Positions 3,484 to 64,000 of a stretch of 64,000 nt of DNA are shown in pieces. The notes beneath the pieces are model-generated. The model did no database searches. It was given only the letters and a program-made list of their open reading frames with translations, and was not told the DNA's origin. Where the stretch lies: assembly GCF_009914755.1 (NCBI RefSeq), contig NC_060932.1. The stretch is one strand, 5' to 3'. Both the position numbers and the translations under genes were made by a program. Source of the DNA: the human T2T-CHM13v2.0 reference genome, Homo sapiens. The first letter of the stretch is position 1. Each line of letters begins with the position of its first letter.

Positions 3484-4222
3484 GGCCTTCTCTCGCAAAT
3501 AATGGAAATGAGACCTTCTCTCCCTGGCTGACGCAAGGAATGGAGTTACATGTCCAGCAATGCAACTGATACCAATTCATCTTCACCTTATCCAGTTCAA
3601 CAGGATCTTTCCCCTAACCTGACAACACGCTCAGGTCTCTGCCATAAACCCTCTTCTCCAAGTGCCTCCCCCCGCCCTCCCCCCCGTTAGTTGTCACCTC
3701 CTCCCACCCATTGTCTCCTCACAGCGACATATTTCAAGAGTCATTTACACGCTGGGTTGCCACTTCCTCCCCTGGCATTTCCATACACCTCAACCACTGC
3801 AGGACACCCTCCAGTGAATTTACTCATTAGCCACTAACAAACACAGCTTGATCACTCCATCATAGGAACTCTCTTCTCCCTGGATACCAAGACACCACGG
3901 TCTGTGGGGTCTCTTTTTATTGGATTCTATTTTGTCCCTTTCAAAGGCTCTTTTCCCCTCCGGAACACTTAACTTTCAGTTTTATGCTACCTTCAGACCT
4001 CAATACATTTCTCTCCATGAATTTGAAATCATCCAAGAAGATGGCGGGCTTGGGAGTGGAGGAGGGAAGGAGGCCCCATGACAGCAAGACCAAGAGCAAC
4101 AGGAAGACAAGCCTGCATGAAAAGGGAGGAAGGAAGCCGAACTTCTTTACCTTATAAAGGCAGTTTTCCAGTGTTAGAGGGCAGAATCATCACTAGAAGG
4201 TCCTATTTTAAATGCAGGCTCC

Positions 4223-24103: not shown

Positions 24104-61421
<37,318 letters not shown>

Positions 61422-62335
61422 GTTAAGGTACCTGTCAAGACAAGAATGAGAAAAGAGAAAATATCCCTTTATAAAAAAGAACATCTGAAGTTTACTTAAA
61501 GAAAAATAGTAACAGGGAAAATGTTCATTAGGCCATGAATTCATTCTTCAGGTTACCCAGACTGTGCTCTGGCAGACAGCAAAACGGGTTCTCAAGGTGT
61601 TGATATGTAGGACCTAGAGGTGAAATGTGGTTTTCCTGTACACAATGGCACAACTGTTGCTCTAATTCTTCTCAAAATTCTCCCAAGACAAGTTTCATTA
61701 ATGGCCTTATAATGAAAAATTCTTTAAGTATTCCAATAGTGCTAATATTCTGAAAAAGAAATTTCTGATCAAGAATTATTTACATGTAGTACTGTTAGTA
61801 TAGCACTGAAACAACAATTTATTTCAAAGCCAAATATTAATACATTTGGCCATGTCTCACCTTTGCATCTCATCTTAAAACAGTATAAAACTTTCTTCCT
61901 GCATGCGGTTCAATAAAGCATATATTTCTAACCAAATTTGGATTGTCAATAATTTGTGGAGGTACGGAGACTACTGATTCAAGGTATGCAGCACAATTCT
62001 GATTTTTAAAATAAAATTATTACAGGATTATAAGCGAATATTGTTTGACATAGTCACTAAAGCATACTATTAGAATGTTCATCATAAGGCTACTTGCTTC
62101 ATGGACTAATGAAAGGACAGCACTGGCTACACACTCAACATGATTTTAGCAAATGAAAAACTAAATTATACATATGATGGTGATGTTTGCCTACGATTAA
62201 GAAAAAATCATGCAACCTTTGTTTGATTCCCATGTTTAATTAACAAATATTCTGGCTGGCCTTCACTGTGGTGAGTATAATTCATCTTTCACCTTTACCA
62301 TTATGCACCAGCTGTGAAGGGCTAAAGAGACTTAC

Positions 62336-62408
62336 TTTCAAAGTCCAAGAAAAAATGTGCTGCATTGTGGTCTATGTCCCTGGTTAGCACCTTAATGAGA
62401 TTACCCAT
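62336..62408 (-). CDS. CYRIB: CYRIB alternative (duplicated) first coding exon (whole exon 62336-62418)
   Basis: tttttatttttag|gtttgctggcATGGGTAATCTCATTAAGGTGCTAACC...TTCTTGGACTTTGAAA|gtaagt; encodes MGNLIKVLTRDIDHNAAHFFLDFE plus 1 nt. Same length, leader and phase as the canonical exon. Confidence 0.9.
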
Positions 62409-64000
62409 GCCAGCAAACCTAAAAATAAAAATGGCAACATCATTTAGTTCCAGTAAAAAATTTTAAGCAGAGGCCTGGGATTTGGCAAAGGCTGGCTTGC
62501 TCATAATTATCAACAGGTGCAGGTTTATATGCTTTTGGCATTGAGAATTTGGAACAACAAAAGCACATTTGGCTCTGAGTTTATAGCTCCTGTCCCTCTT
62601 TTCCACATATCAAAAAAGTTACATAAAGCAAGATGGGAAAAAAGATTAGATTTTGACATATAACTTGCAATATTTACATTTTATTACTATCTATGTTAGT
62701 GTTACTCCTTTAAAATTTTTGAGGCATATATTTCTCAATTTAACAGCAAAACTAGATTTCTCAAATAAGTAACTATAGAAACCATTTTTTTAAATAATAG
62801 GGATATTTTCCTTCTTGCAGAGTCAAATCCTATTGGGAACACAAAGAAGAAAGTATTCAAACCACATTTAACCATTAAAGCCTAAAGAAAGTTATCAATT
62901 AATGACCCATCTAAAAAAACTTTACCACACATAAAATGTTTTTGATATCTTCTGTCTCCTAAGATTAATCAAACTTATTATTTAACTCTTAGACTGAATA
63001 ATCAACTATACACAACTATACCATGTATGGAACTTAAAAGTTAACACAGCAAACAGGGAGCCAGCAATTATCACAACTTAGTAGGTTTGCGGAGGACAAA
63101 AAGTGAAAATACGGCATTGGCATAAATGTTGCCCAAGATTTCCATAATGCAGTGAGGATGAAAGTGGGAAATGGGGTCAGAAACATCCAGGAAACCAGGT
63201 TCAAACCTGGAAGGTAGAGTAACAAAAGGGGAGGCAAACTATGGTATCACGGCTACCCACATCCTCCTCCCTCCAACTGCTGTACTTTTCCTCCAATTGC
63301 TATGTGTTTTTCTCCAAAGATCCCGTTGCTGGCAAATGTAAATAAGGCAAAACATAAAACAATATTTTTATTAAGAAAAAAGACAACTTGCCACTCACTC
63401 TCATTATAAGAAGCTTGAAAAAAGTTAGCACTTCCCGTCACCTGTGGCATCCCCCTCTTCCACCTACTCTCCAACATCAGCATATGTTTCTAACTGTAAG
63501 CTTCCCATGAGGAAATACAAATAGCTATTTGCTTTAGAGGTCAAAGTCTGATGTACGGAAACACAAATTTCTTATAAAATGTTAAAAGCAATCCAATTTA
63601 TTCATATATGGTAAGTACTGAATGGTTCTTCCCTTTTGAAACAATATTCCCCCAATGGGGGAGGTGGAGATCTATCTTCTTCTTATATTAACATTTCTAT
63701 TACACAGAATTTCAATGGTCTGATTTTGTACAATACTTTACACAAGTGGATTAGGTGACATTAAGCTAAGAGGGAAATATTTAATATTTTGACTTAATTA
63801 CTGTATACATTGTAAAACATTTAATAATACCAAGCTTTTATATTAAAGGAAAAGATAAACATTTTTCCTAAATCATCACACCCAAATAATTATCTCAAAT
63901 TGGTTACTAAAGTTCTTCAATAGATGTTGGAAGAAACCATTTGGAAATAGCATATTTCACAGCTTTAATTTTTAAAAGCTTTCCAACATATATGGAATGA

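What the first reader, a model, noticed from the sequence alone, without database searches (positions are those of the whole stretch)
62336..62418. Hidden duplicated start exon: an alternative CYRI-B N-terminus lacking Cys10 (possible lipidation switch)
Seen: ~900 nt upstream of the canonical ATG exon is a paralogous exon with the same geometry (83 nt = 10 nt leader + 73 coding, phase 1), strong splice sites and a strong Kozak context. It encodes MGNLIKVLTRDIDHNAAHFFLDFE versus canonical [24 protein letters not shown]: 14 of 24 identical, with many synonymous codon differences, which indicates ancient duplication under purifying selection. Established: CYRI-B Gly2 is myristoylated and Cys10 is a proposed palmitoylation site. 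The paralogue CYRI-A begins, as I recall, [23 protein letters not shown]. Inference: mutually exclusive splicing yields a same-length, CYRI-A-like isoform with myristate only and different membrane targeting of this RAC1 inhibitor. The exon may be in RefSeq/GENCODE, but I know of no functional description.
Basis: partly seen in the sequence, partly recalled or inferred. Interest (0 to 1): 0.85.

Follow-up and report, generated by a model that had tools for sequence, protein, structure and literature searches.

The report
Ancient alternative start exon of CYRIB
Human CYRIB has a second, very old version of its first coding exon that swaps a short loop beside the protein's lipid anchor and removes a cysteine that can carry a fatty acid; the exon is already annotated, but its function has not been studied.

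Summary
Window 62336-62418 (minus) is an 83-nt exon: 10-nt leader, 73 coding nt, phase 1, AG acceptor and GTAAGT donor. It encodes MGNLIKVLTRDIDHNAAHFFLDFE, 14 of 24 residues identical to the canonical exon at 61349-61431.

It is not hidden. RefSeq lists it, and a 2021 paper (PMC8373072) notes in one sentence a homologous CYRIB 5' CDS conserved in sharks. I found no functional study.

- The peptide is 24/24 identical in 13 named bird and mammal proteins and 23/24 in two cartilaginous fishes.
- It is closer to the CYRIA exon on chromosome 2 (62/80 nt, 9/10 of the leader) than to its neighbour (47/83 nt).
- Both exon types ("R", Arg10; "C", Cys10) occur in each of three vertebrate CYRI paralogue clades. 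In 8 of 8 read-through models R lies upstream of C, so the duplication probably predates the paralogue split.
- Teleost fam49ba proteins start with R and fam49bb proteins with C.
- The whale-shark "CYRI-B" crystal structure (6YJJ) is the R form.
- Acyl-RAC data mark canonical Cys10 as formerly S-acylated; the alternative exon has no cysteine.

The lipidation and membrane-kinetics switch is plausible but untested.

The parts
62336..62418 (-). Alternative ('R-type') first coding exon of CYRIB: 10-nt leader 62409-62418, ATG 62406-62408, Arg10 codon AGG 62379-62381, last base is the first base of a split codon (phase 1)
   Evidence: listed among 'exons of other transcripts' in the hub's RefSeq table
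62419..62440 (-). 3' splice site of the alternative exon: AG 62419-62420 preceded by a T-rich tract
   Evidence: 75% pyrimidine in the last 20 nt
62330..62335 (-). 5' splice site GTAAGT of the alternative exon. The same donor hexamer follows the CYRIA exon, and R-type exons read SK into the intron in 46 read-through models
61432..62329 (-). Rest of the 904-nt intron between the two homologous exons. No similarity between the exons' flanks beyond the exons themselves
   Evidence: direct repeat D1 covers only the exon 3' ends
61349..61431 (-). Canonical ('C-type') first coding exon: ATG 61419-61421, Cys10 codon TGC 61392-61394, donor GTGAGA
   Evidence: hub annotation (NM_001353258.2)
53338..53459 (-). 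Shared second coding exon (begins ..AT GCC CAG = [N]AQPTESEK) to which either first exon must splice
   Evidence: proteins join R-type peptide directly to NAQPTESEK

Best explanation
62336-62418 is a real, functional, protein-coding alternative first coding exon of CYRIB. It is one half of a tandem pair of homologous start exons that very probably arose before the vertebrate CYRI paralogues separated. I call the two types R (Arg/Lys at residue 10, upstream) and C (Cys at residue 10, downstream).

The two exons must be used one at a time. Each carries its own ATG, both are 83 nt and phase 1, and including both makes the upstream ATG open a 35-codon frame that ends inside the canonical exon.

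Splicing 62336 to 53459 gives a 324-residue CYRI-B with an unchanged body. It keeps Gly2 and helix alpha1 (only L5I differs in residues 1-9). Residues 10-18, the loop between alpha1 and alpha2 beside the myristoylated N-terminus, change from CTDLEQGPN to RDIDHNAAH.

Inferred mechanism: the canonical form is myristoylated at Gly2 and S-acylated at Cys10, giving stable, regulated membrane attachment. The alternative form has myristate only and behaves like mammalian CYRI-A, with a diffuse pool and short residence on membranes. This would change where and for how long CYRI-B can sequester active RAC1.

Shown: the exon, its geometry, its conservation, its kinship with the CYRIA exon, absence of cysteine, and acyl-RAC evidence for Cys10. 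Inferred: its use in human tissues, myristoylation of the alternative form, and the difference in acylation and membrane kinetics.
For: Anatomy.

Constraint:
- The peptide is 24/24 identical in 13 named proteins: 4 birds and 9 mammals.
- It is 23/24 identical in Callorhinchus (P0038) and in the Rhincodon chain of PDB 6yjj.
- 20 stored clusters carry the exact peptide.

Age:
- The exon matches the human CYRIA exon at 62 of 80 nt and 9 of 10 leader bases, against 47 of 83 nt to its neighbour.
- In a tree of the residues after exon 1 (88 rows), clades A (SH-aLRT 97), B (99) and C (99) each hold both exon types: 5 R + 9 C, 6 R + 49 C + 1 unclassified, and 5 R + 5 C.
- 8 of 8 read-through models have R upstream of C.
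- Lamprey carries the exact human C-type peptide.
- Teleost fam49ba-like proteins start with R (70 of the 97 new clusters), and fam49bb proteins start with C.

Lipid:
- C-type exons have Cys10 in 110 of 115 occurrences. R-type have it in 0 of 75. CYRIB R-type has no cysteine in 0 of 21.
- The mouse brain acyl-RAC peptide [27 protein letters not shown] carries the carbamidomethyl mark that the authors read as a former palmitate (PMC9004782, supplement and passages).
- Fam49b is one of 38 of 1988 proteins found in at least half of mammalian palmitoyl-proteome studies, 10 studies (PMC5468251, Table 2 passages).
- FAM49B is listed among dynamically palmitoylated, Palm M-sensitive proteins (bioRxiv 10.1101/2020.05.21.108316, passage).

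Behaviour:
- CYRI-A (R-type in mammals) is transient with a diffuse pool.
- Canonical CYRI-B is 'much more stable' on tubules and vesicles.

Structure:
Against: - No RNA or peptide evidence for use of the exon in human tissue was seen here. The peptide string occurs in 0 papers of the library. CYRIB is absent from the proteomics-supported list of tandem-exon events, though it was not in the gene set those authors searched.
- The whole 24-residue peptides, not just residue 10, are frozen for hundreds of millions of years. This argues that the loop does more than carry or lack a cysteine.
- The R/C split is not strictly 'no Cys / Cys'. 25 of 75 R-type exons have Cys15 (paralogue C GKDLENCPH and one fish CYRIA). 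5 of 115 C-type exons lack Cys10: hagfish NSP and paralogue C TYN.
- FA49A also appears in one data sheet of the acyl-RAC study. I could not tell whether that sheet is proteome or palmitome.
- The Cys10 site rests on one proteomic peptide, not on mutagenesis.
Confidence: 0.5

Rival explanations
1. The exon is functional and mutually exclusive, but it acts through the alpha1-alpha2 loop as a protein surface, not through acylation. Swapping residues 10-18 would change a contact: with a partner, with the CYRI body, with the dimer, or with an acyltransferase or thioesterase. It could also change how the myristoylated helix is presented. That would tune activity or autoinhibition independently of whether a palmitate is present.
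For: - Both 24-residue peptides are conserved letter for letter far beyond residue 10: C-type identical from lamprey to human, R-type 23/24 from shark to human.
- Some R-type exons carry Cys15 and some C-type exons lack Cys10.
- CYRI proteins form autoinhibited dimers whose regulation is unknown, and the authors ask whether modifications or membrane control it (PMC7955166, passage).
Against: [quoted passage not shown]
- It tolerates insertion of a whole GFP after Pro16/Pro17 with rescue of function, which is hard to reconcile with a tight interface.
- The crystal constructs that define the dimer and the Rac1 complex lack residues 1-25 (7ajl chain starts at AQPTESEK).
- Cys10 is kept in 110 of 115 C-type exons.
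Confidence: 0.3
2. The exon acts mainly at the RNA level as an expression switch. When spliced in together with the canonical exon, its strong ATG opens a 35-codon upstream frame that overlaps the canonical ATG out of frame. This would silence CYRI-B translation or trigger decay, and the protein isoform would be a by-product.
For:: joining both exons gives a 35-codon frame from the upstream ATG that stops inside the canonical exon. The start context GCTGGCATGG is strong. The 10-nt leader is conserved between CYRIB and CYRIA (9 of 10), and the residues RFAG precede the ATG in 29 read-through models.
Against: An RNA-only role does not explain amino-acid identity of 24/24 or 23/24 over the bird-mammal and shark-human distances. 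Nor does it explain 8 synonymous codon differences among 14 shared residues between the paralogous exons. Gene models in many species splice the exon directly to exon 2, and teleost fam49ba proteins use the R-type exon as their start. The R-type protein was expressed and crystallised as a folded CYRI-B (6yjj).
Confidence: 0.08
3. The exon is a decaying relic or an annotation artefact with no present function in human.
For: It was absent from GENCODE v33 (PMC8373072). No functional paper was found.
Against: The open frame, ATG, both splice sites and every residue are intact in human and identical in 13 named birds and mammals. Human CYRIA shows what loss looks like: no C-type exon is detectable there.
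Confidence: 0.02

Closest known systems
Tandem exon duplication-derived substitutions at the N-terminus (Martinez-Gomez et al., NAR 2021, PMC8373072; GBE 2022, PMC9741552)
   Same: Two adjacent homologous exons of equal length and phase, used one at a time, and ancient. The authors count 39-40 N-terminal events among 236 and find most events older than vertebrates. They name the CYRIB 5' CDS as a case still missing from GENCODE v33 and conserved in sharks.
   Different: CYRIB was not in their curated set, so its age, tissue use and peptide support were not analysed. Here the pair is traced through three paralogue clades and to lamprey.
CDC42 and KRAS alternative terminal exons that change the lipid anchor
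   Same: Homologous alternative exons at a protein end that carry the membrane anchor. Both genes are listed as tandem duplicated exon events of chordate age with tissue-specific peptides (Table S2). From memory, not from a call: one CDC42 isoform and KRAS4A can be palmitoylated, while the other isoforms rely on prenylation with or without a polybasic stretch.
   Different: Those swaps are at the C-terminus and involve CaaX prenylation. Here the swap is at the N-terminus beside an N-myristoyl glycine, and the difference in acylation between isoforms is not yet shown.
CYRI-A (CYRIA/FAM49A), the paralogue
   Same: Human CYRIA starts with an R-type exon that shares 62 of 80 nt, the leader GTTTGCTGG and the GTAAGT donor with the CYRIB alternative exon. 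Both have Arg10 and no Cys10.
   Different: The CYRIA exon is one codon shorter, and the rest of the protein is about 80% identical to CYRI-B. Human CYRIA has no detectable C-type exon. Fish, shark and bird CYRIA genes do have one.
Dual acylation (N-myristoyl glycine plus nearby S-acyl cysteine) as a two-signal membrane anchor
   Same: The canonical CYRI-B has a myristoylated Gly2 (Fort 2018 as cited) and an acyl-RAC-marked Cys10.
   Different: In the classical cases that I recall (Src-family kinases, G-alpha subunits) the cysteine is at position 3-6. A cysteine at position 10, after a short helix, is further away. Cys10 has not been tested by mutagenesis.

Membership tests
Tandem duplicated, mutually exclusive homologous exons | Two neighbouring exons of one gene with detectable sequence homology | tested here: met
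   14/24 residues, 47/83 nt, BLASTP E 7e-9; 904 nt apart
Tandem duplicated, mutually exclusive homologous exons | Same length and phase, so either exon keeps the downstream frame | tested here: met
   Both are 83 nt (10 + 73) and phase 1. Either one joined to 53338-53459 reads ...[15 protein letters not shown]
Tandem duplicated, mutually exclusive homologous exons | Inclusion of both exons is non-productive | tested here: met
   Joining both in silico gives a stop after 35 codons inside the canonical exon
Tandem duplicated, mutually exclusive homologous exons | Transcripts contain one or the other exon, never both (junction evidence) | not testable with these tools
   No RNA-seq data were available. 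The only support is indirect: the RefSeq listing (hub table) and gene models in other species that join R-type directly to exon 2
Tandem duplicated, mutually exclusive homologous exons | Both exons conserved as coding sequence across species | tested here: met
   R-type 24/24 in 13 named birds and mammals, 23/24 in 2 cartilaginous fishes. C-type 24/24 in lamprey through mammals
CYRI/FAM49 proteins (Pfam PF07159, DUF1394) | N-terminal MG... peptide joined to a DUF1394 body | tested here: met
   Proteins carrying the R-type peptide have precomputed PF07159 and match PDB CYRI-B chains at E 1e-208
CYRI/FAM49 proteins (Pfam PF07159, DUF1394) | N-myristoylation at Gly2 of the alternative isoform | not testable with these tools
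   Residues 1-9 differ only by L5I from the canonical form, which papers report as myristoylated. This is inference only
Lipid-anchor switch by alternative homologous exons | An acylated cysteine is present in one exon and absent in the other | tested here: met
   Canonical Cys10 carries the acyl-RAC mark. The alternative exon has no cysteine. Cys10 is present in 110/115 C-type and 0/75 R-type exons
Lipid-anchor switch by alternative homologous exons | The two isoforms differ in acylation and in membrane localisation or kinetics | not testable with these tools
   Only the CYRI-A versus CYRI-B contrast in PMC8236918 is available as a proxy

The most novel reading that the evidence does not exclude
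The R/C pair of start exons is a membrane-anchoring switch more than 450 million years old and shared by the whole vertebrate CYRI family. C-type N-termini are dually acylated and dwell on membranes. R-type N-termini are myristoyl-only and cycle fast. Lineages have repeatedly hard-wired the choice: mammalian CYRIA kept only R, teleost fam49ba uses R and fam49bb uses C. [quoted passage not shown] Human CYRIB could produce a 'CYRI-A-like' CYRI-B in particular cells.
Probability: 0.35. Interest if true: 0.7.

Novelty: new member of a known kind. Interest (0 to 1): 0.55.

Why it matters
CYRI-B is a studied brake on RAC1-driven actin assembly, with roles in cell migration, macropinocytosis, T-cell activation and defence against Salmonella. 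Almost all work uses the canonical N-terminus.

- **A gap in the field.** In the library searched, no paper holds both 'CYRI-B' and 'palmitoylation'. Yet FAM49B is among the most reproducible palmitoyl-proteome hits, and its Cys10 peptide has been captured.
- **A natural experiment.** An evolutionarily frozen alternative exon that removes exactly this cysteine tests what the second lipid does. It may also explain why CYRI-A and CYRI-B differ in membrane kinetics.
- **A correction to the structural literature.** The full-length 'CYRI-B' crystal structure is the R-type isoform. The 'poorly conserved' residues 10-18 are a difference between isoforms, not between species.
- **Practical consequences.** The myristoylated tryptic N-terminal peptides of the two isoforms differ only by Leu versus Ile, so mass spectrometry cannot tell them apart. 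Exon-targeting guides or antibodies against the N-terminus may hit only one form.

Tried and rejected
- **C-type remnant in human CYRIA.** I searched 9.7 kb of intron downstream of its R-type exon (L004). The best hit (14 residues, 50%) has a nucleotide local score of 26-28. Thirty shuffles scored 24-35 and six control window chunks 26-33, so it is at chance level and was rejected.
- **Third copy of the exon.** None was found in the window or the genome. That genome tool scores only its best candidates.
- **Splicing-regulator motifs** (GCATG, YCAY clusters, YGCY pairs, ACTAAY, CU-rich, GGT-rich) around both exons: a handful of single hits, nothing above what 2 kb gives by chance.
- **Competing RNA structures.** There are 8 inverted pairs of 12-20 nt in 1.5 kb. 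One (I4) has an arm inside the alternative exon. This cannot be judged without other species' DNA, and no claim is made.
- **Catalogues of mutually exclusive exons.**
  - FAM49B/CYRIB is absent from the text and the 3 held supplementary files of Hatje 2017.
  - It is absent from the text and held supplement of PMC9741552.
  - It is absent from the held supplement of PMC8373072.
  - It is present only in one Discussion sentence of PMC8373072.
- **Other literature searches** found no functional description: peptide string (0 papers), CYRI-B + palmitoylation (0 papers), and three broader term sets.
- **The careful maximum-likelihood search** did not finish in 300 s. The quick IQ-TREE result is reported.
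- **No structure prediction or complex prediction** was run, because a crystal structure of the R-type form already exists.
Full report
**1. What is in the sequence**

On the minus strand, 62336-62418 reads ag|GTTTGCTGGC ATG ... GAA A|gtaagt. It is 83 nt: a 10-nt leader, then 73 coding nt ending in phase 1. It translates to MGNLIKVLTRDIDHNAAHFFLDFE.

The canonical first coding exon, 61349-61431, has exactly the same geometry and encodes [24 protein letters not shown].

- The two share 14 of 24 residues and 47 of 83 nt.
- Of the 14 shared residues, 8 use different codons.
- BLASTP gives E = 7e-9 for the pair.
- Both ATGs sit in strong contexts, and both exons have consensus-like splice sites. 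I had no quantitative splice-site scorer.
- Either exon joined to the next exon (53338-53459) reads ...[15 protein letters not shown].
- If both are included, the upstream ATG opens a 35-codon frame that stops inside the canonical exon and runs over the canonical ATG out of frame. A productive alternative isoform therefore has to skip the canonical exon.

**2. Already annotated and already mentioned in print**

The hub's RefSeq table lists 62336-62418 among exons of other CYRIB transcripts. In the Discussion of Martinez-Gomez et al. [quoted passage not shown] They add that it was missing from GENCODE v33 and was not reported by three earlier surveys.

- CYRIB/FAM49B does not occur in the text or held supplements of Hatje 2017.
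- It does not occur in those of the 2022 follow-up.
- It does not occur in the held supplement of the 2021 paper.

Searches for a functional description found nothing:
- 'CYRI-B' + 'palmitoylation': 0 papers.
- The isoform-specific peptide string: 0 papers.
- Three broader searches.

PDF supplements and subscription-journal papers were not visible to me.

**3. Conservation**

I searched a 5.8-billion-protein collection with the 46-codon open frame around the exon. It returned 57 proteins at E <= 10 from 58 candidates.

- The 24-residue peptide is identical in 13 named proteins.
  - Four birds: Melospiza, Columba guinea, C. livia, Phasianus.
  - Nine mammals: camel, two whales, Pteropus, Tupaia, Cricetulus, pangolin, colugo, tamarin.
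- It differs by one residue (A17S) in elephant shark.
- Seven further unnamed clusters carry the exact peptide.
- Most named models join it directly to NAQPTESEK.
- Two bird models read through the intron and contain both exons in the human order.
- The canonical peptide is equally frozen. It is letter for letter the same in lamprey, elephant shark, coelacanth, sturgeon, amphibians, reptiles, birds and mammals (41 of 115 C-type occurrences).

**4. The alternative exon is the CYRI-A-type exon, and the pair is older than CYRIB**

The only other match to the alternative-exon peptide in the human genome is the first coding exon of CYRIA on chromosome 2. That exon encodes [23 protein letters not shown]. 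It has the leader GTTTGCTGGG (9 of 10 bases shared with the alternative exon) and the donor GTAAGT.

- Nucleotide identity between the alternative exon and the CYRIA exon is 62 of 80.
- This compares with 47 of 83 to the neighbouring canonical exon.
- Canonical versus CYRIA is 53 of 80.

Protein searches then showed that both exon types occur in other paralogues.

- Teleost, shark and bird CYRIA proteins can start with a C-type exon (TCTELEQGPN and variants).
- A third vertebrate paralogue has both an R-type (GKDLENCPH) and a C-type (ACAELEHGPIV or TYNELDQGPN) start. It was not found in the human genome searches.
- Eight models or open frames read through both exons, always with R upstream of C: two bird CYRIB, five CYRIA-type, one of the third paralogue.
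- In read-throughs, R-type exons are followed by SK (donor GTAAG) 46 times and C-type exons by SE (donor GTGAG) 26 times.

I built a quick IQ-TREE tree of the residues after exon 1.

- It had 88 rows: 84 vertebrate rows with at least 270 residues after a recognisable exon 1, plus 4 distant outgroups. Shorter rows were left out.
- It recovers three clades with SH-aLRT 97, 99 and 99.
- Each clade holds both exon types: A has 5 R + 9 C; B has 6 R + 49 C + 1 unclassified; the third has 5 R + 5 C.
- Lamprey and hagfish fall outside these clades.
- The careful search did not finish, and there are no bootstraps.

The simplest reading is one tandem duplication before the paralogues separated, followed by retention or loss in each lineage.

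- Human CYRIA has lost a recognisable C-type exon. The genome search found none, and the best match in 9.7 kb of intron is at chance level.
- Teleosts point to subfunctionalisation. Proteins named fam49bb start with the C-type exon. Of the 97 new clusters in the last search, 70 are fam49ba-like and start with an R-type exon, MGNLIKVLTRDIDNN[AGT]GNFFLDFE.
- Which type is older is only hinted at. Several distant, unnamed homologues have [ST]-R-[DE] at residues 9-11.

**5. Structure**

- PDB 6yjj/6yjk, the full-length 'CYRI-B' of whale shark, starts (after a cloning serine) with MGNLIKVLTRDIDHNASHFFLDFE. That is the R-type exon, 23 of 24 identical to the human alternative exon.
- The 7ajk chain has the canonical N-terminus.
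- The 7ajl chain starts one residue into the part encoded by exon 2.

Kaplan et al. (PMC7543656, passages) state three things:
- Most whale shark-human differences lie in residues 10-18.
[quoted passage not shown] The comparison above shows that this is a difference between splice isoforms. The human genome encodes the shark-type loop almost unchanged. One of the other species they cloned, Tupaia chinensis, has a database FAM49B entry that starts with the R-type exon (P0031).

The same paper places the myristoylated Gly2 at the accessible base of the structure. Le et al. (PMC8236918) inserted GFP after Pro16/Pro17, inside this loop, and retained function. The loop is therefore exposed.

**6. 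Lipidation**

Myristoylation of Gly2 of CYRI-B is reported by Fort 2018, as cited in the passages read. The alternative exon changes only L5I within residues 1-9, so I infer that it is myristoylated as well.

For Cys10 there is direct proteomic evidence.

- In the supplementary data of Gorenberg et al. 2022 (PMC9004782), the mouse FA49B peptide [27 protein letters not shown] carries carbamidomethyl on its fourth residue.
- In that acyl-RAC design the mark denotes a formerly palmitoylated cysteine (passages).
- FAM49B is listed in their table of PPT1 substrates.
- Edmonds et al. 2017 (PMC5468251) list Fam49b among the 38 of 1988 proteins found in at least half of mammalian palmitoyl-proteome studies (10 studies).
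- A preprint lists FAM49B among dynamically palmitoylated, Palmostatin M-sensitive proteins.

Across all stored sequences:
- Cys10 is present in 110 of 115 C-type exons. The exceptions are hagfish and the TYN variant of the third paralogue.
- Cys10 is present in 0 of 75 R-type exons.
- The CYRIB R-type exon has no cysteine in 0 of 21 cases.
- Against a clean rule, 25 of 75 R-type exons have a cysteine at position 15 (third paralogue, plus one fish CYRIA).

**7. Mechanism proposed**

Myristate alone gives weak, reversible membrane binding, and a second signal such as palmitate stabilises it. This is established knowledge of dually acylated proteins and was not tested here.

I therefore propose the following.

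- Canonical CYRI-B is a myristoyl-plus-palmitoyl protein whose membrane residence is set by an acylation cycle.
- The alternative isoform is myristoyl-only and behaves like mammalian CYRI-A.
- Le et al. describe CYRI-A as diffusely localised and recruited in flashes of about 50-100 s.
- They describe canonical CYRI-B as 'much more stable' on tubules and vesicles.
- They remark on a possible difference in membrane kinetics.

This fits the proposal, but it compares paralogues that also differ elsewhere. The complete freezing of both loops suggests that they also carry information beyond residue 10 (rival 1). An RNA-level role for double inclusion is possible, but it cannot explain the amino-acid conservation (rival 2).

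**8. Verdict**

The exon is real, coding, constrained and ancient. Its existence and its conservation in sharks are already on record.

New here:
- Its kinship with the CYRIA exon.
- The origin of the R/C pair before the paralogues split.
- The teleost partition between fam49ba and fam49bb.
- The isoform identity of the crystal structure.
- The link to an experimentally captured Cys10 acylation site.

The lipid switch remains a well-motivated hypothesis that is easy to test.

Noticed in passing
PDB 6yjj/6yjk versus window 62336-62408: The published full-length 'CYRI-B' structure (whale shark) carries the R-type N-terminus. The paper's 'poorly conserved residues 10-18' reflect comparison of different splice isoforms, not species divergence.
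   Followed up: yes
L002/L004 (chromosome 2, CYRIA first coding exon and 9.7 kb of the following intron): Human CYRIA keeps only the R-type start exon, whereas fish, shark and bird CYRIA proteins can start with a C-type exon. A weak 14-residue match in the intron (L004 about 3860-3901) is at chance level.
   Followed up: yes
Proteins P0306-P0372 versus P0115, P0125, P0151, P0154: Teleost fam49ba-like proteins start with an R-type exon and fam49bb proteins with a C-type exon. This looks like partition of the two alternative exons between whole-genome-duplication copies. Whether each gene has lost the other exon was not checked.
   Followed up: partly
Proteins P0160, P0165-P0172, P0179, P0180, P0190, P0192, P0376-P0388, P0398, P0400, P0401: A third vertebrate CYRI paralogue (variously named A-like or B in the sources) is present in fish, amphibians, reptiles and birds. 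It has its own R-type and C-type start exons. The peptide searches of the human genome found no trace of it.
   Followed up: partly
window 62353-62365 and 61986-61998: A 13-nt inverted repeat (92% complementary) has one arm inside the alternative exon and the other in the intron between the two exons. It could matter for exon choice or be chance. No comparative data were available.
   Followed up: no
window 62394-62405 and 61407-61418 (codons 2-5 of both exons): After removal of Met1 and trypsin cleavage, the N-terminal peptides are GNLIK (alternative) and GNLLK (canonical and CYRIA). They are isobaric, so myristoylome mass spectrometry cannot tell the isoforms or paralogues apart.
   Followed up: no
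PMC9741552, supplementary Table S2: CYFIP1, the distant DUF1394 relative of CYRI proteins, is itself listed with a tandem duplicated exon substitution of gnathostome age that has peptide support.
   Followed up: no
Proteins P0198, P0213: Some distant, unnamed CYRI homologues (about 45-50% identical) have a Cys-Cys pair around residues 14-17 of the N-terminal peptide. This could be an independent acylation site.
   Followed up: no
Literature: No paper in the searchable library holds both 'CYRI-B' and 'palmitoylation', although Fam49b ranks among the 38 most reproducibly detected palmitoyl-proteins. The CYRI and palmitoylation literatures appear unconnected.
   Followed up: partly
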